In this document: positions 41,787 to 50,348 of the stretch, in pieces
Layout of the letters: each line of letters starts with the position of its first letter
Position numbering within the stretch: the first letter of the stretch is position 1
From: Candidatus Marinacidobacterales bacterium
GTDB lineage: Bacteria > Acidobacteriota > Vicinamibacteria > Marinacidobacterales > SMYC01
NCBI GenBank assembly: GCA_965237955.1
Contig: OZ250169.1
Coordinates: 2,816,001-2,880,000 of the forward strand
DNA length: 64,000 bases
Reading direction: 5' to 3'
Notes under the pieces: generated by a model
The model's database searches: none
Seen by the model: the letters and a program-made list of their open reading frames with translations, nothing else
What the model was told of the DNA's origin: nothing
Program-made: the position numbers and the translations under genes

Positions 41787-44258
41787 TCAGAACCTGAACT
41801 TCATCTCGCCTACAACGGTCCGCCGGAGCAGGTCGCCGAAGATGTGCTGCTGGACAGTTTGGTTGAACAGGTTGGTCACCTTCACCGTCGTCGTGACGGT
41901 GCCTCCCTGCCACTTCACCCCGAAGCTACCGTTCACCGTCGCGTACCCGTCGGTGTAGCCGTGATACGCCGACGTGAGGACGTCGCTCCAGAACGCGTCG
42001 GTGGCGGCGTTCACCGAGGCGGAGCCCAGCAGCCTCGACCCGTTCCACGTCATCGCTGCGTTGAACCGGTGCGTCGGGGGCAGGTTGAGCTCCGCCGGCA
42101 GATACGGGTTCGGATTGTCCAGGATCTCCGGTTCGGACTGCCACGAGTAGTTGATGGACGCGGCTAGCGACCGTGAGACCTTCTGTTCGAGCCACAGCTC
42201 CATGCCGGTCTGGCGGATCGGACCCAAATTCAGGTATGTGAACGCGGTTCGAGGCAGAAAGATCCCTAACTGCGCCATCTGCGTCAGCACGAGCGGCGGG
42301 AGCCGCCATCCGGGCGGTGGACTTGCTGCGGTATACGGGTCGAGACTTGGCGGCAGCGCGGTGAAGTTGATGGAGTCATCCCGCCGGTTGACGAAGAACG
42401 AGCCGCCGAGCGTCGTCCCGCGCGGGAGCACGCCAGTGTAGCTCACTTCGTACGCCGTCAACGATTCCTCCGTCAACTCGTCCTGGGGCATCCCGCCGAT
42501 CGGGATGTCGCTGCCGGACGCGCCGACCACGAGCGGAAACGGCTGGGCGACCGCTGGCTGCAGCACCGGCGGCAGAAGCGGCGCGAGGGCGCTCAGGTCC
42601 ACCGGGCTGACGATGTTCGTCTGCAGGGCGTTGTTGATGACCGACGGCGCACGGAAGGCTCGGTTGTACGACAGCGTGACGGAGTGATCCTCTGCCGGCT
42701 TGACGATGAACGCGATCCGCGGCGAGAACTTTGGGTCGGAGAGGTTGCCGAATTTGTCCACGCGCCCGCCCAGAACGAGGCGGAACCGTTCCCAGAAGAT
42801 CTCGTCCTGCAGGTACCCGCCCACCTCGAGGCGGTTCTCGCCAAGCGGTGCGAGGGTGATGTCGAAGTTGTTCTGCCGCACGTTGCCACCGTAGTTCAGC
42901 CGGTGCCGGCTTCCGAGGAACACCGAGTGGCCGATCTCGCCGTCGAACGTCTGTGACTTGAAGTCGAGCTGCTGCGGCATCCCGGTGGCGATGTCCGGCA
43001 GCAACAGGTTCGGTGCCTTGCCGTCCAGGAAGTTCGCGAAGAACTGTATCTGCAGGTCGCCCCGCGTGTAGTTCAGCTTGCCGTAGCCCATGTATGTCCC
43101 CGACTGCATGTCGAACGGACCGATGCCGCTGTGGACGATTCCTTCCGTGCCGGCCACGCCGCCCGAGTAAGTGATGGTGGCATCGGACAGCTCCTGGTCG
43201 ACCCGCACCTCGAACTTCGGCTGGCTGGTGCCCCGGTTCGCGAATCCGGTCCCGAATGCGGCGGTGCCCGAGTCCAGAGGGTAGAACGCTCCTCCCACGG
43301 TCTGTCCGGGCTGACGCGGGTCGTCGATCACCGGGATCCGGCCCGTCGGCCGGGCGAACGCGTCGGACCTGAAGTAGCCGCCGCTGACGCGGTACGACAG
43401 CCGGTCGCTCGGCGCCCGCGTCACGGTCGCGTTCGCACCGAACATCGAGCCCTCGCCAAGTCCGACGCCCGATCCGTCATTCCGGTCGACGTACCCGCCG
43501 CTGAGCGTCACCGTCGTGCCGACCGATTCCCGCGGCGGCTTGGTGATGATGTTGACCGCCCCGGTCATGGCGTTGGCGCCCCACACCGCGGACGCTGGCC
43601 CCCGCACCACCTCGATCTGCTCCACGTCGTCGAAGTTGGTCGGGAGCAGGTCCCACATCACGAGGCCGAAGAAGTCAAGGTAGACGCTGCGTCCGTCCAC
43701 CAGGACGAGCTGCGAGTTCGTCAGCGTGTTGCCGGGGCTGCGGCTGGTGACCTGCACGTCGCGGGCCGAGAGCTGGATCACGTTGACGCCCGGCGTCGCA
43801 CGCAGGAGGTCGCCGTAGTTCTGGGCCGGCGTGGTTTCAAGCGTGGCGGTGGAGATGACCGACATGGACACCGGCGCATCGATCAGCCGGACCTCGTTTC
43901 GCGATGCGGTCACGACCACCGTGTCACCGAAGCTGGCGAGCTGCAGCACCACCTCGGGCAGCACCACCACGCCGTCGGACACCACCACGTCATTGACCGT
44001 CGCATCAGAGAAGCCGGTCAGAGACACGGTCAGCGTGTAGGTGCCCGGAGCGATTCCGCCGGACAGCTCGAAGTCGCCCCGCTCGTCCGAATAGACGGTG
44101 CGCGGTACGCCGTCTCCTCGCAACGTCACGGTGGTGCCCGACAGCACCAGACCGGTCTGGTCAACGACGCTGCCGGTGACGCTTCCGGTCTGCGCCGATC
44201 CGGACGCCGGCCATGTGACGAGCAGGAAAAGGCGCAAAATTCCAACGTGACGAATCAT
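41787..44258 (-). CDS. TonB-dependent receptor
   Basis: SD GGAGG before ATG 44258; carboxypeptidase-like N-domain, DTVVVTASR TonB box, LVLVDGRS, IEVVRGP.SA.WG.NA..G..NIIT, C-terminal F. Confidence 0.92.
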   Translation of the reverse strand: MIRHVGILRLFLLVTWPASGSAQTGSVTGSVVDQTGLVLSGTTVTLRGDGVPRTVYSDERGDFELSGGIAPGTYTLTVSLTGFSDATVNDVVVSDGVVVLPEVVLQLASFGDTVVVTASRNEVRLIDAPVSMSVISTATLETTPAQNYGDLLRATPGVNVIQLSARDVQVTSRSPGNTLTNSQLVLVDGRSVYLDFFGLVMWDLLPTNFDDVEQIEVVRGPASAVWGANAMTGAVNIITKPPRESVGTTVTLSGGYVDRNDGSGVGLGEGSMFGANATVTRAPSDRLSYRVSGGYFRSDAFARPTGRIPVIDDPRQPGQTVGGAFYPLDSGTAAFGTGFANRGTSQPKFEVRVDQELSDATITYSGGVAGTEGIVHSGIGPFDMQSGTYMGYGKLNYTRGDLQIQFFANFLDGKAPNLLLPDIATGMPQQLDFKSQTFDGEIGHSVFLGSRHRLNYGGNVRQNNFDITLAPLGENRLEVGGYLQDEIFWERFRLVLGGRVDKFGNLSDPKFSPRIAFIVKPAEDHSVTLSYNRAFRAPSVINNALQTNIVSPVDLSALAPLLPPVLQPAVAQPFPLVVGASGSDIPIGGMPQDELTEESLTAYEVSYTGVLPRGTTLGGSFFVNRRDDSINFTALPPSLDPYTAASPPPGWRLPPLVLTQMAQLGIFLPRTAFTYLNLGPIRQTGMELWLEQKVSRSLAASINYSWQSEPEILDNPNPYLPAELNLPPTHRFNAAMTWNGSRLLGSASVNAATDAFWSDVLTSAYHGYTDGYATVNGSFGVKWQGGTVTTTVKVTNLFNQTVQQHIFGDLLRRTVVGEMKFRF

Positions 44259-44559
44259 CAAGTAACCTCCACTAAGATTTCGGACGCATGCCAGATGTGG
44301 TCTCGTCATGACCATCACCTCGGATTGTAGATGAAAGATCAGGAAAGTGTCACGAGCAGCACGTGATGCGGGCTGGGCTGACCACACGGTGCCTGACGTT
44401 CAGAGACACCTTCGTGTGCACGCCGACATCCTCATTAATGGCGTTCGCCGACACAGGCAGGCCAGCTGACACTAGCATTCAAACACGGCGTAGCAACATA
44501 TCTGGACTCCTCTAGTCAAGCCCCTTTCTTAATAAATCTTCCATCGAAGCTGCGCATCC

Positions 44560-44770
44560 ATCGCGTCGTGACGAGTGGGTCAGACTGCAAACGTATCTTC
44601 GGCCTCAGTGAGGAGCGTCTTGGGTGCTCCGGGCCATGATGGAAAATCCGCGCGCGAGGAGCCAATCACTTTGAACGACCTCTTAGGGCCAGTGTTGCTA
44701 TCGGCTTGACCCCGCGCCGGTCCGACCGGTACGCCATCAGTTGGATGGGTATCGTCGCAGCCTCTTTTGG
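44560..44770 (-). ncRNA. Predicted bridge RNA / seekRNA of the IS1111-type element (boundaries approximate)
   Basis: The minus strand carries TAGCAACA...TCAAAGTG inside a GCCGAT/ATTGGC stem (target loop) and TTCCATCA...AGATACG (donor loop). These match target TAGCAA-CA-CTTGA and junction TTCCAT-CA-TATCT. Confidence 0.75.
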
Positions 44771-44808
44771 AAGGGAAAAAGGAAAACACGAAAGTGGAGC
44801 CTCTAAGT

Positions 44809-45840
44809 CTAAGCGGCCATCGGCGACTGGAATTCACTCTCGCGGGTGGAGACGGCCCAGACGATCCGGGCGAGTTTGTTGGCGACAGCAATCACGGCCT
44901 TGTTGTGTCCCCGCGAGCGGTGGACCTTCCGAGCCCAGGCGCGGAGCTTGTCGGGCGGGCTCTTACTGACGTTCGCCGCGCGGAGCACGGCGCGCCCGCC
45001 CTGGGTGAGGAGCATACGGAGGTAGGAGTCGCCACGCTTGGTGATGCGTCCGAGGCGGCGAATGTCGCCACTGGAGTTTTCCTTGGGAACTAGGCCGAGG
45101 TAGCTCGAGAAGCGGCGCCCCGATGGGAAGCGGCGAAGATCGCCGACGAAGCCCACGATGGCGGTCGCGGTCAGAAGTCCGATGCCGGGAATGGCGAGAA
45201 GTCGTTGGACTTCAGGAAGCTGCTTGGTGAGCGCCTTGAGCTCGTGCTCGATGCCAGCGCACTTGTCCTTGAGTTCTCGAATCTCGGAGCAGGCATCACG
45301 GAGATGCGAACGGAGCACGTCGGGCAAATCAGAATCAGCGTCTTCGACGAGTTCGAAGAGGGCGGGCACGACGAAGTGAGCGCCCTTTGGGATGATGAAT
45401 CCGAGTTCGCGCAGGATCCCGCGTACGGCATTGATGCGTGCGGTCCGTGTGGAGAGCCATCCTGAGCGCAGGCGATGGAGCGCGGCGAGGCTGTGCTGGT
45501 GCACGGACTTAATGGGCACGGGAAGAATCTCCTCGTTCCTGTAGGCCTCGAGCAACGCTTTGGCGTCGGCGCGGTCGTTCTTGCTCCCGCGTCGATAGGG
45601 CCTCACGAGGTGAGGTGGGAGCAGGACGACGTCGTGTCCCAACCTTCGGAACGTCCTTGCCCAGAAGTGAGCAGAGCCGCAGGCTTCGAGAAGCACGGTG
45701 GCAGCGCTCTGTTTGGCAAAAAACGACACCAACTTGGGTCGACTCACACGGAGTTGCTTGGACACCTTCCCCGCTTCTCCCGAGATGGCAATCTCGAAGA
45801 CGTTCTTTGCAAGATCCACAGCGATCGTCGTATCTTTCAT
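44809..45840 (-). CDS. IS110-family (IS1111 type) recombinase/transposase
   Basis: AVDLAKNVF, LEACGSAHFW, KNDRADA (DEDD RuvC domain); IPGIG..TA, YLGLVP...SSG, GRITKRG..YLR; SD AGGAGG. Confidence 0.95.
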   Translation of the reverse strand: MKDTTIAVDLAKNVFEIAISGEAGKVSKQLRVSRPKLVSFFAKQSAATVLLEACGSAHFWARTFRRLGHDVVLLPPHLVRPYRRGSKNDRADAKALLEAYRNEEILPVPIKSVHQHSLAALHRLRSGWLSTRTARINAVRGILRELGFIIPKGAHFVVPALFELVEDADSDLPDVLRSHLRDACSEIRELKDKCAGIEHELKALTKQLPEVQRLLAIPGIGLLTATAIVGFVGDLRRFPSGRRFSSYLGLVPKENSSGDIRRLGRITKRGDSYLRMLLTQGGRAVLRAANVSKSPPDKLRAWARKVHRSRGHNKAVIAVANKLARIVWAVSTRESEFQSPMAA

Positions 45841-45921
45841 TCGGACTCCTCCTTTTCGATGCGTATTCGACTGACTTTGGCACATCGATGCCGTCTATGT
45901 CAGCGGAGGAGTCCATTCCAT

Positions 45922-46390
45922 CACTTGATGGCGGAAGCACCGAATAGAGTCCATGCCGACGGCAAGAACCAGCGAGAGCCACCCACTTGATGGCGGAAGC
46001 ACCGAATAGAGTCCATGCCGACGGCAAGAACCACTTGATGGCGGAAGCACCGAATAGAGTCCATGCCGACGGCAAGAACCACTTGATGGCGGAAGCACCG
46101 AATAGAGTCCATGCCGACGGCAAGAACCAGCGAGAGCCACCCCTTGATGGCGGAAGCACCGAATAGAGTCCATGCCGACGGCAAGAACCAGCGAGAGCCA
46201 CCCCTTGATGGCGGAAGCACCGAATAGAGTCCATGCCGACGGCAAGAACCAGCGAGAGCCACCCACTTGATGGCGGAAGCACCGAATAGAGTCCATGCCG
46301 ACGGCAAGAACCAGCGAGAGCCACCCCTTGATGGCGGAAGCACCGAATAGAGTCCATGCCGACGGCAAGAACCAGCGAGAGCCACCCACT
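45922..46390. repeat. Tandem array of 8 units (62,48,48,61,61,62,61,62 bp), no spacers
   Basis: Unit CTTGATGGCGGAAGCACCGAATAGAGTCCATGCCGACGGCAAGAACCA[GCGAGAGCCACCC(A)] starts at 45924, 45986, 46034, 46082, 46143, 46204, 46266 and 46327. Confidence 0.95.
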
Positions 46391-47702
46391 GGGGAGCGAC
46401 TGCGGTGGTCAGCCTGATCATCCACGAAGAAATCGCCTATCTAAAGGTGCACGATCTCCCGAGGGCGGTTCGAGACCGGCACATGGAGTGGTGGCATGCC
46501 CCGATTCCCGACGGAGAGGCACCGGAACAGGACTTCGAGCACGCCTGGAAGGCCACCGGCGAGTCCATCCGGAACCGGCTGCGGCTCGGCTTCGACGTGC
46601 TGCTCCACTGCCGGGGTGGTCTGGGACGCGCCGGGACCATCACAGCCCGCCTGCTGGTGGAGTTGGGCGTGCAACCGGACGATGCGATCCGCCGCGTGCG
46701 CGACGCCCGCGAATGGACCATCGAGAACGGCTCCCAGCTGGCTCACGTGAGGCAGTGTTCGGCACAAGCACCATCGGTTCCATCCCGGAGACCGCGGACG
46801 ACATCCACGACCGGGCGCTCGGGGCCTTCCTCGGTCTGGCGGTGGGCGACGCGGTCGGCACGACGCTCGAATTCTGCTCCCGCGATACGCAGCCGCGTCT
46901 AGAAGACATGGTCGGTGGCGGCCCGTTCGATCTGCCGGCCGGCGCTTGGACCGACGACACGGCCATGGCGCTGGCCCTTGCCGACAGCCTGGCGGAATCC
47001 AAGACGCTCGACTGCCGGGACCTGATGGACCGTTTCGTGAAGTGGTGGCGAGACGGAGACTACTCGTGGAGCGGAGACTGCTTCGACATCGGAAACACGA
47101 CCTGCCAAGCGCTCACCCGGTACCTACGGACGGGTGACCCGGTCGCGGGTTCGACCGATCCCTTGAGCGCAGGCAACGGCTCGCTGATGCGGCTCGCCCC
47201 CGTTGCGCTCCGGTTCAGGCACGACCGGCCGCGCCTGATCGCAGCAGCCGCCGACCAGTCCCGGACGACCCACGGAGCCGAGGAAGCAGTGGACGCCTGC
47301 CGGGCGTTCGGCGAGCTCCTAGCGGACGCCATCGCCGGGTCACCGTTCTCGGACGTTCTGGCTCCGAGACGGTTCACGGGAGCGGCGGCAATCACTCAGG
47401 TCATAGCCGGCAGCTGGCGAGGACGGACACGGGATACGATCCGCTCCAGCGGGTACGTCGTTCACACGCTCGAAGCCGCCATCTGGTCAGTCGCCCGCAC
47501 CGGAGACTTCCGCAGCGCGGTGCTGCTCGCGGCCAACCTGGCCGACGACGCCGATACGGTAGCAGCAGTGACGGGGCAGCTCGCCGGCGCCCTCTACGGC
47601 CTGAACGCCATCCCCGACCACTGGCGGGAACGCGTTGCCTGGAAGGATCGACTCCTGGCAGCGGCGCGGCGGTTGCTGTCGGAACCCCTTGCCGACCGGT
47701 AG
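46390..47702 (+). pseudogene. CX5R phosphatase (CDKN3-like) + ADP-ribosylglycohydrolase; 5'-truncated, frame change between domains
   Basis: WGATAVVSLI...LLHCRGGLGRAG; then GLAVGDA.G, WTDDT.M, CFDIGNT, GNGSLMR and DADT.AAVTGQLAGA in another frame from about 46780. Confidence 0.85.
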
Positions 47703-48918: not shown

Positions 48919-50348
48919 CGTCCTGTGCCAAAACTCGGCCCTCTTGAAATAGACCACAAATCAGCAGCTTAGTGTCTGTGTTTGCGACCGGACCAAGGGC
49001 CGTAGGCTTTACAATCGTCTGGCCCGAGGGTGTTATCTTCAGATCCATGATGACGTACCACGTGCAATTCCTACTGCTCGTTCTAGCTGGCTGGGTCAAC
49101 CGCCAGCAGCAGGATGTGATCGACTACCAGCAAGAGGAGAACCGTGTGCTCCGAGCCGGGCTTCGGGGCAAGCGTCTCAGTCTCTCGGACGACGACCGGC
49201 GCAGGCTCGCGGTCAAGGCCCAGGCTTTGGGCCGCGAGGCGCTGGCCCAGATTGCGTCCGTTGCCACACCCGCTACGCTTCTGCGTTGGTACCGCTGCCT
49301 CATCGCAGCCAAGTACGATGGCAGCAAGAACCGGAGCCCAGGCCGACCTCCGACGGCGAAGGACATCCGTGAGCTCATTGTGCGCGTGGCGCGGGAGAAC
49401 CCGACGTGGGGATATACGCGCCTGCGAGGCGCACTCAAGAACCTAGGACATGAACTCGGACGCAACACTATCAAGAGGATCCTCGCCGAGCACGGTATCG
49501 CTCCTGCGCCGGAGCGGGGCAAGAGCATGTCGTGGAGCACCTTCATCAAGGCTCATTGGGGCGCCATCGCTGCGACAGACCTGTTCACCGTCGAGGTTGT
49601 GAACCCGTTCGGGCTCGTCCGCTACCATGTCCTGTTTGTCATCGATATCGCCACTCGCTGCGTGTGCATCGGTGGGATAACGTCGGACACCCCAACGGGG
49701 AGTGGATGAAGCAGGTGGCAAGAAACCTCACTGACATGTGGGATGGTTTCCTCCTTGGCAAGCGATACCTCATCCACGACCGGGACCCGCTATTCACCGA
49801 GGCGGTACGTGGGCTGTTGAGAGATTCAGGCGTGAAGCCCCTTCGCCTTCCCGCTAATAGTCCGAATCTGAACGCATATGCGGAAAGATTCGTTCTCTCC
49901 ATACGTCGAGAGTGTCTCGACCGCTTCGTACCTCTCAGTGAGCGACACCTGCGCACAGCGGTAACCGAATACGTAGTGCACTATCACACAGAACGGAACC
50001 ACCAAGGTCTCGGCAACGAGCTCCTCACACCTCTGCCGGCAAGCGCGAATGACGCTGGCCCCATCGTGTCGCGAGAGCGACTTGGGGGCATTCTCAACTA
50101 CTACTGCCGTGCCGCGTAGATTGTCGCCGGCGACGGTAGCCCCTCGGCGGGCTCGACCGGCGTAGCGTGGAAACAGCTTCAGGAACATGCTTCGATATTC
50201 GCTCTCGACTAGGTGGTCATCTGCATGGTGACGACCCGCCCGCCCAAGACGATTGTAAAGCCCACGGCCCTTGGCCCGGTCGCAAACACAGACACTAAGT
50301 TGCTGATTTATGGCCTATTTCAAAAGGGCCGAGTTTTGGCACAGGACG
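48919..50348 (+). mobile_element. Full-length type A integrase-core (rve/DDE; IS481-like) element, 1430 bp
   Basis: About 100-bp imperfect terminal inverted repeats starting CGTCCTGTGCCAAAACTCGGCCC, enclosing one transposase gene; no target-site duplication. Confidence 0.88.
49047..50119 (+). pseudogene. Type A integrase-core transposase, frameshift near 49690
   Basis: ENPTWGY.R..G.L..LG, W.TF...H, TDLFTV (D), HDRD (D), NAYAERF (E), ERNHQG, RLGG.L.YY. Confidence 0.88.

What the first reader, a model, noticed from the sequence alone, without database searches (positions are those of the whole stretch)
44560..44770. Readable bridge/seekRNA: four guide segments match target and donor
Seen, plus-strand coordinates: TGTTGCTA (44693-44700) is the reverse complement of the left flank TAGCAACA. 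CACTTTGA (44667-44674) resembles the right flank CACTTGA. ATGATGGAA (44636-44644) and CGTATCT (44592-44598) match the circle junction TTCCAT-CA-TATCT with one mismatch. The target pair is closed by a GCCGAT/ATTGGC stem. Established: IS1111-type elements encode their guide RNA downstream of the transposase. Inference: an intact, probably programmable recombinase with a CA core.
Basis: partly seen in the sequence, partly recalled or inferred. Interest (0 to 1): 0.75.

Follow-up and report, generated by a model that had tools for sequence, protein, structure and literature searches.

The report
RNA-guided element targeting IS1-like transposon ends
A small jumping gene carries four short segments of a predicted guide RNA that match its own ends and its landing site inside the end of another jumping gene, and related copies change guide and landing site together, which makes it a clear new example of a known RNA-guided mechanism rather than a new one.

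Summary
Observation confirmed. The stretch is the guide-RNA region of an intact IS1111-group IS110 element (44499-45923; nearest named relative ISPa25, 46%). All four segments are where stated, in order (0 of 20,000 shuffles). Guides change in step with flanks across homologues. All 18 left junctions in this genome read TAGCAA-CA, against 7 of 142 empty ends, and none of those 7 has the full right half. CA is not an obligatory duplicated core: homologues carry different cores at the two junctions, which places the cut just after the core. Head-to-tail duplications start exactly at that cut, including the 8-unit array at 45924; all 18 distinct joins have C two bases before the cut. Such duplications and half-match recombination are described in 2026 preprints. 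RNA, circle and activity were not shown. The scan found this element before in another genome. New member of a known kind.

The parts
44499..45923 (-). IS1111-group IS110 element, 1425 bp counting one CA core
   Evidence: Ends fixed by about 15 near-identical full copies and by empty sites
44809..45885 (-). IS110-family recombinase ORF (358 aa from the first ATG; likely start at the ATG at 45840 behind a GGAGG, inferred)
   Evidence: PF01548 + PF02371, NF033542 308.7 bits over cut-off 140; D10, E53, D90, D93 and S258-G259 in the 344-aa range used
44570..44751 (-). Conserved core of the predicted bridge/seekRNA (true ends unknown)
   Evidence: Alignment of 25 homologous regions with conserved stems and variable guides; no Rfam match
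44692..44700 (-). Left target guide UAGCAACAC
   Evidence: Identical to target TAGCAA-CA-C; changes with the left flank in homologues
44667..44674 (-). Right target guide (UCA)AAGUG, complementary to CA-CTT
   Evidence: Changes with the right flank in homologues
44636..44644 (-). Left donor guide UUCCAUCAU
   Evidence: Identical to the predicted circle junction TTCCAT-CA-T
44592..44598 (-). Right donor guide AGAUACG
   Evidence: Complementary to TATCT; changes with the element end in L047, L048, L051, L052
44661..44705 (-). Target-binding loop with closing stem (44700-44705 pairing with 44661-44666)
   Evidence: Single-sequence fold; four pairs invariant in 25 of 25, flanking helix with compensatory changes
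44491..44498 (+). Left target half TAGCAA and core CA
   Evidence: 18 of 18 left junctions in the genome
44503..44512 (+). Right-end subterminal inverted repeat TGGACTCCTC, 4 bases inside the cut
   Evidence: Sequence; conserved in homologues
45906..45915 (+). Left-end subterminal inverted repeat GAGGAGTCCA
   Evidence: Sequence; conserved in homologues
45916..45923 (+). Left donor half TTCCAT and core CA
44365..44498 (+). Remnant of the 244-bp short IS1-like element (host of the insertion)
   Evidence: 97% to positions 93-226 of the empty copy at C1:704979-705222
45924..45941 (+). Right target half and outer tip of the IS1-like terminal inverted repeat
   Evidence: 173 matches with up to 2 mismatches in the genome; paired in inverted orientation round 105-1200 bp elements
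45924..46390 (+). Tandem array of 8 units (62, 48, 48, 61, 61, 62, 61 bp, then the resident copy), each starting at the first base after the core
   Evidence: sibling loci have a 16-bp duplication at the same base instead
46356..47702 (+). Neighbouring phosphatase / ADP-ribosylglycohydrolase gene; its first codons lie in the repeat unit and it has a 137-bp deletion at 46388/46389
   Evidence: Pfam hits; intact 493-aa copy near C1:3.056 Mb; deletion against the sibling at C1:2974141

Best explanation
This is an intact IS1111-group insertion sequence whose downstream non-coding region holds four segments matching its target and its own ends, and these likely form a two-loop guide RNA that directs the recombinase into one terminal inverted repeat of an IS1-like transposon. 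Shown: anatomy, guide-flank matches, covariation, target identity and selectivity. Inferred from published IS110 work: the RNA is made from the minus strand and binds the recombinase; the window plus strand is cut just after the two-base core; one strand is copied out as a circle joining TTCCAT-CA to TATCT; the circle is joined into TAGCAA-CA-CTTG. Inferred here: occasional one-sided (half-match) strand transfers from an existing junction to a nearby C-N site give the head-to-tail duplications that begin at the cut, both inside the element (extra copies of the RNA region) and in the flank (the array at 45924).
For: Ordered four-word match, 0 of 20,000 shuffles. A 91% variant in the same genome has other flanks (TAACAAT-CA / CA-CTGG) and guides changed in step (UAACAAUCG; GCAGCG), donor guides unchanged; a third programme in L149/L156. 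Permutation over homologues: left guide score 126 against 82.7 +/- 4.4 (22 distinct guides), right guide 49 against 20.3 +/- 3.7 (15 distinct guides), 0 of 20,000 each. Selectivity: 18 of 18 filled against 7 of 142 empty ends read TAGCAA-CA; the 7 continue CCTGA, TTTGA x3, ATTGA, GTTGA, CTTAA, none CTTGA. Of 16 short-element copies with this end, 14 are filled. Host bodies differ (85-96.5%) while the inserts are 97.8-100% alike, so the insertions were separate events. Relatives: 32 of 44 left flanks TAGCAA-CA, 56 of 62 right flanks CA-CTTGA; L090 and L091 sit in non-repeat DNA that still reads AGCAA-CA-CTTGA. Duplications at the cut: 4 of 18 left junctions and 5 of 24 right junctions here, 0 of 142 empty ends, 69 of 200,000 random positions; also 5 of 44 related loci and a joint in run X16. 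All 18 distinct joins have C at -2 (11 CA, 3 CG, 2 CC, 2 CT).
Against: No transcript, circle or activity shown; no circle joint in 4 runs. Four of the 18 loci share both flanks and are copies of one region, and homologues are kin, so the p-values overstate. 12 of 44 relatives' left flanks depart from TAGCAA-CA, some widely (GAGCTG-CA, AGCTTA-CT). One exact TAGCAACACTT outside any repeat (C1:234179) and many AGCAACACTT words are empty. The left guide lies in three different registers to the cut across homologues, which had to be allowed in the test. Several homologues have GG or TG at the left junction, so C at -2 is not a family-wide rule. The window's array was not covered by any run laid, flank-side duplications were in 0 of 62 relatives' right junctions, and L085, L087, L088 also hold rearrangements not anchored at the cut.
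Confidence: 0.88

Rival explanations
1. The RNA match is needed but not enough: the element also needs something about the IS1-like end (bound transposase, DNA shape, bases beyond the guide).
For: Every main-type copy in this genome is in the repeat, while an exact TAGCAACACTT outside it and many AGCAACACTT words are empty. A 2026 preprint title reports a sequence-plus-structure rule for ISPpu10 (10.64898/2026.03.19.712850, search listing only).
Against: L090 and L091 are inserted in non-repeat DNA matching only the guide word; the empty outside words lack either the first T or the G after CTT.
Confidence: 0.15
2. Only the short target-loop RNA (seekRNA) acts; the ends are read by protein through the subterminal repeats and the donor loop is dispensable.
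For: A short 82-nt seekRNA sufficed for ISEc11 movement (PMC11187229, part 3); target-loop-only RNA is the main species for CazIS110-1 (10.1101/2025.10.25.684509).
Against: The right donor guide changes with the element end in L047, L048, L051 and L052, which points to selection on pairing; full RNA was needed for circle formation in CazIS110-1.
Confidence: 0.12
3. The shared flanks come from one old insertion that was then spread as a composite by the IS1-like transposase or by segment duplication, not from repeated guided insertion.
For: Four loci share both flanks; the outer 20 bp of the host repeat survive the insertion.
Against: Host bodies are 85-96.5% alike round inserts of 97.8-100%; inserts lie in different host subfamilies and in an autonomous-type copy; the guide-flank covariation is independent of this.
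Confidence: 0.05
4. The duplications at the junctions are assembly or amplification artefacts, or ordinary replication slippage at a 2-4 bp microhomology, unrelated to the recombinase.
For: 11 of 18 joins share CA with the true junction; the 48- and 61-bp units can derive from the 62-bp unit by slippage; the array is not covered by the runs laid; one related genome shows mosaic rearrangements.
Against: 0 of 142 empty ends with the same right half carry such a duplication; they recur in three assemblies and one short-read run; the 7 non-CA joins have 0-1 bp of homology yet all have C at -2 (about 1e-4 by my arithmetic at a C fraction of 0.28).
Confidence: 0.2

Closest known systems
ISPa25 / ISPa21 / ISKpn4 / ISPst6 (IS1111 group, attC-targeting; seekRNA of PMC11187229)
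   Same: Best plasmid match ISPa25 family, 46.3% over the whole protein, ISPa21 family 42.6%; RNA region downstream of the gene; subterminal repeats; order of the two target matches as described for IS1111.
   Different: Target is an IS1-like terminal repeat, not attC; several distant homologues fetched here still have GTTRRRY-like flanks (motif recalled).
IS4321 / IS5075 (IS1111 group)
   Same: Insert into the terminal inverted repeat of another mobile element (title of Partridge and Hall 2003 seen in reference lists; paper not read).
   Different: Their host is Tn21-family; here the host is an IS1-like element and its short derivatives. Not found in print in three searches.
IS621 / ISCro4 / CazIS110-1 bridge RNA systems (PMC11208160; PDB 8wt6, 9t56; 10.1101/2025.10.25.684509)
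   Same: Two loops, four guides in the order LTG, RTG, LDG, RDG; DEDD plus serine; cut after a two-base core.
   Different: IS110 group with the RNA upstream; only distantly alike (E 5e-9 and 2e-8, C-terminal part). No IS1111-group structure was matched.
Half-match recombination and tandem expansion of IS110 loci (10.64898/2026.08.31.748434; 10.64898/2026.08.14.744561)
   Same: One-sided joins that keep one true end; tandem non-coding units beside the transposase (468 cases there).
   Different: They report repeat units keeping almost only left-donor matches; here units keep the right-donor half, and some keep the right-target half and duplicate flank DNA. The word IS1111 does not occur in the expansion preprint's main text; conventions for left and right may differ and supplements were closed.
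ISPpu9 with Ssr9 (PMC12288879, abstract only)
   Same: Extra copies of the small-RNA region of an IS110 element.
   Different: There fixed modules with their own end boxes; here variable end points (19-565 bp).

Membership tests
IS110 family | DEDD RuvC-fold domain plus C-terminal PF02371 domain | tested here: met
   PF01548 47.1 bits, PF02371 87.8 bits, both over cut-off; NF033542
IS110 family | Catalytic D-E-D-D and serine of the SG motif | tested here: met
   Motifs located by inspection; assignment of roles from established knowledge
IS1111 group | Subterminal inverted repeats of 11-13 bp, about 7 bp from the left end and 3 bp from the right | tested here: met
   10 perfect bp, 8 and 4 bases from the cut (7 and 3 if one mismatched base is added); criterion from PMC11187229
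IS1111 group | Long non-coding region downstream of the transposase | tested here: met
   44499-44808, 310 bp, against a short left end
IS1111 group | Match to the top strand lies 5' of the match to the bottom strand in the RNA | tested here: met
   First guide is complementary to the transposase strand, second to the other
IS1111 group | No target duplication; one fixed position and orientation | tested here: met
   Empty sites hold one CA; all copies at the same base and orientation
IS1111 group | Circular intermediate | tested here: inconclusive
   No full-circle joint listed in 4 runs kept as contigs, which drop rare forms
IS1111 group | Promoter formed at the circle junction | tested here: inconclusive
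   TTGACT at 44514-44519 is conserved, but the best -10 is TGGAAT at 18 bp
Bridge/seekRNA system | Target guides covary with targets | tested here: met
Bridge/seekRNA system | Donor guides match and covary with element ends | tested here: met
   By inspection in four homologues; no statistic
Bridge/seekRNA system | Conserved two-loop fold | tested here: met
   19 consensus pairs, 7 with compensatory changes; z -2.59
Bridge/seekRNA system | RNA is made, binds the recombinase and can be reprogrammed | not testable with these tools
   Contigs of an RNA run cover parts of the element but cannot show a transcript
IS1 family (host element) | IS1-type transposase with zinc finger and DDE domain | tested here: inconclusive
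   NF033558 E 6e-22 but 78.6 bits under cut-off 100; PF03400 under cut-off; hence 'IS1-like'
IS1 family (host element) | Terminal inverted repeats round the transposase | tested here: met
   Both ends at 2 of 11 transposase hits, one end at 4
IS1 family (host element) | Target duplication of 8-9 bp (recalled) | tested here: not met
   At most 3 bp shared in 44 end pairs; many pairs may be ends of different insertions or reshaped by deletions

The most novel reading that the evidence does not exclude
IS1111 recombinases leave a readable record of one-sided strand transfers in natural genomes: they cut after the core, need only a C at core position 1 at a nearby site, and duplicate DNA on the right of either junction, including host DNA outside the element in pieces as short as 16 bp. 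This would fix the cut position for a group with no matched structure, show a right-target-anchored product not described in the preprints read, and predict a specific by-product of bridge editors.
Probability: 0.4. Interest if true: 0.5.

Novelty: new member of a known kind. Interest (0 to 1): 0.3.

Why it matters
That makes it a good candidate for a structure and for editing tests in a group less studied than IS621. The junction-anchored duplications give a testable rule for the cut site and a by-product worth checking in bridge editors. The basic mechanism, the habit of targeting other elements' ends, and tandem growth of IS110 loci are all already described.

Tried and rejected
Rfam scan of 44000-46600 at E up to 1: no match. 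Circle junction and transcript: not seen in 4 runs kept as contigs; this is no evidence of absence, and no further runs could be laid, so the question stays open. The joint 44496 to 45922 in run X2 is the empty form but can come from any other copy of the repeat. The array has no cover in these runs. Idea that the duplicated RNA regions form a guide array with different programmes: rejected, 22 of 24 RNA copies in the genome have identical guides, one is the variant and one has a small change next to the donor guide. Idea that the shared 18-bp right flank is part of the IS110 element: rejected, it occurs at 142 empty ends and the variant lacks it. REP/REPIN, IS91 or intron ends as the target: rejected once the repeat was found round an IS1-like transposase. 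A partial RNA-like fragment at C1:5560833-5561020 has no intact target loop and was not pursued. Rows left out of the permutation test: of 43 distant loci examined, those without a readable end or guide, L018 (no guide pattern), L039 and L104 (false end), L011 (left end only), and repeats of the same guide. Literature searches for IS1-end targeting found nothing relevant; most subscription papers are not searched. No structure or complex prediction was run, as it would not have changed the verdict.

Full report
Observation. The four segments are at the given coordinates in the 310-bp region downstream of a minus-strand IS110 recombinase gene (ORF 44809-45885). Read on the gene's strand they give, in order, a word identical to the left flank plus core, a word complementary to core plus right flank, a word identical to the element's left end plus core, and a word complementary to its right end. 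This ordered set was found in 0 of 20,000 shuffles. The region folds better than 99 of 100 shuffles (z -2.59), has no Rfam match, and aligns with 24 homologous regions as conserved stems round variable loops, 7 of 19 consensus pairs showing compensatory change.

The element. The genome is one contig of 8.13 Mb with about 15 full copies at 99-100% and many fragments. The element is 1425 bp with one CA core, with 10-bp subterminal inverted repeats 4 and 8 bases from the cut. DEDD and SG motifs are present. The best named match is the ISPa25 family at 46.3%. Relatives at 93-98% protein identity lie in genomes titled Candidatus Marinacidobacterales; 8 of 41 genomes searched have the RNA region (including this one). 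It meets the sequence criteria for the IS1111 group given in PMC11187229 (parts 2 and 3 of 9 and passages read) and PMC11208160 (passages).

Are these real guides? A 91% variant in the same genome sits between TAACAAT-CA and CA-CTGG and has the target guides UAACAAUCG and GCAGCG, with donor guides unchanged. L149 and L156 show a third programme. Over homologues down to about 47% identity, own guide against own flank scored 126 against 82.7 +/- 4.4 for the left guide (22 distinct guides) and 49 against 20.3 +/- 3.7 for the right (15), with 0 of 20,000 permutations reaching either. The left guide needed three registers (cut after position 8, 9 or 10), allowed equally in the permutations; the window's element uses the shortest. 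The right donor guide follows changes of the element end in four homologues. Homologues are kin, so these are not exact probabilities.

The target. The right flank continues as an 18-bp word found 173 times with up to two mismatches. It is the terminal inverted repeat of short elements of about 105-245 bp and of a 1197-bp element with an IS1-like transposase (scores under the family cut-offs, no 8-9 bp target duplication seen). All 18 outermost left junctions of the main element read TAGCAA-CA; only 7 of 142 empty ends do (Fisher 2e-18, overstated by four sibling loci), and none of the 7 continues CTTGA. Of 16 copies of the 244-bp subfamily with this end, 14 are filled; one empty copy reads CA-CCTGA, the other has a truncated tip. 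The autonomous-looking copy at C1:3086457 lacks three bases across the core and is empty, while its 98% sibling is filled. Host bodies differ by 3.5-15% round inserts that are 97.8-100% alike, so the insertions were separate. In relatives 32 of 44 left and 56 of 62 right flanks are the same words, and two copies lie in non-repeat DNA that matches the guide. Against a purely RNA-set choice, one exact 11-mer outside the repeat is empty, and 12 of 44 left flanks deviate.

The core and the cut. In many homologues the left junction has CG, GG or TG and the right junction CA. So the core is not duplicated: the left junction keeps the target's core and the right keeps the donor's, which puts the cut on the window plus strand just after the core (inference; it agrees with top-strand exchange described in 10.1101/2025.10.25.684509, parts 1-3 of 5 read).

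Duplications at the cut. The array beside the element (units of 62, 48, 48, 61, 61, 62, 61 bp) starts at the first base after the core. Three sibling loci have a 16-bp duplication and another locus a 79-bp one at the same base: 5 of 24 right junctions, against 0 of 142 empty ends and 69 of 200,000 random positions. At 4 of 18 left junctions the first 292-475 bp of the element, with the whole RNA region, are repeated. Five of 44 related loci show the same (19-565 bp; L159 repeats and extends L087 and is counted once), and run X16 has a joint going back 533 bp to the same base (duplication or partial circle). All 18 distinct joins have C two bases before the cut; 7 are not CA and share 0-1 bp with the true junction. 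The last base of both right-hand guides is an invariant G that could read that C (inference). Against: the array was not covered by the runs laid, flank-side duplications were in 0 of 62 relatives' right junctions, the 48- and 61-bp units may be secondary, and one genome also has rearrangements not tied to the cut.

What is known. Half-match recombination (10.64898/2026.08.31.748434, parts 1-3 of 6) and tandem growth of IS110 loci, including 468 cases of non-coding units beside the transposase (10.64898/2026.08.14.744561, part 1, section 8 and passages), cover this behaviour. That preprint reports units keeping almost only left-donor matches, whereas these keep the right-donor or right-target half; its supplements were closed and may hold such cases, and its left/right convention may differ for IS1111. 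ISPpu9 has separate RNA modules (PMC12288879, abstract only). Targeting another element's terminal repeat is known for IS4321/IS5075 (title only). An IS1-like end as target was not found in three searches. The scan's earlier notes describe this element in another genome, a 565-bp duplication, and several IS1111 elements aimed at IS66 and IS256 ends; these were read after my analysis and are not independent support.

Verdict. Observation confirmed, interpretation supported and sharpened. It works like, and by every sequence test belongs to, the IS1111 group of RNA-guided IS110 elements (0.88). RNA, circle and activity remain unshown. New member of a known kind; interest 0.3. The boldest open reading, a natural record of one-sided transfers that also duplicate host DNA, has probability 0.4 and interest 0.5.

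Noticed in passing
window 46356-47702; siblings G000:C1:2974141, 3011927, 7874092, 3055800: A fused dual-specificity phosphatase / ADP-ribosylglycohydrolase gene occurs in several copies; the window's copy has a 137-bp deletion running from a CA-CTG to a CG-CTG site, both resembling core plus right half.
   Followed up: partly
G000:C1:3086457-3087653 and 7995397: IS1-like ends that lack three bases across the core (TAGCA-CTTGA) are empty; possible escape variants, as is the CA-CCTGA end at C1:705205.
   Followed up: partly
whole genome G000: About 200 ends of the IS1-like repeat family, mostly single ends or 105-245 bp elements, clustered at 0.2-1.2, 2.8-3.2 and 7.8-8.0 Mb, with no target duplication at 44 end pairs; many abut the ends of other elements.
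   Followed up: partly
G000:C1:5883373-5888855: Four matches to a distant IS110 transposase (28% over the C-terminal half) follow each other at spacings of about 1.5-1.7 kb, a possible tandem array of a second IS110 element.
   Followed up: no
L085, L087, L088, L093: Copies in one related genome are patchworks of short pieces of the element itself (18-300 bp), like template-switch repair or amplification chimeras.
   Followed up: no
L009, L033, L051, L052 and others: Distant homologues from metagenomes have flanks resembling attC core sites (motif recalled), with the left guide in a longer register and different cores at the two junctions.
   Followed up: partly
window 48972-50119: Frameshifted integrase-core (rve_3, HTH_21) transposase-like gene; intact 363-aa copies lie near many IS1-like ends.
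   Followed up: no
window 41787-44387: TonB-dependent receptor gene on the minus strand just left of the host element remnant.
   Followed up: no
G000:C1:5560833-5561020 (L002): Orphan fragment of a related element: transposase 3' end and the start of the RNA region, cut off at the target loop.
   Followed up: partly
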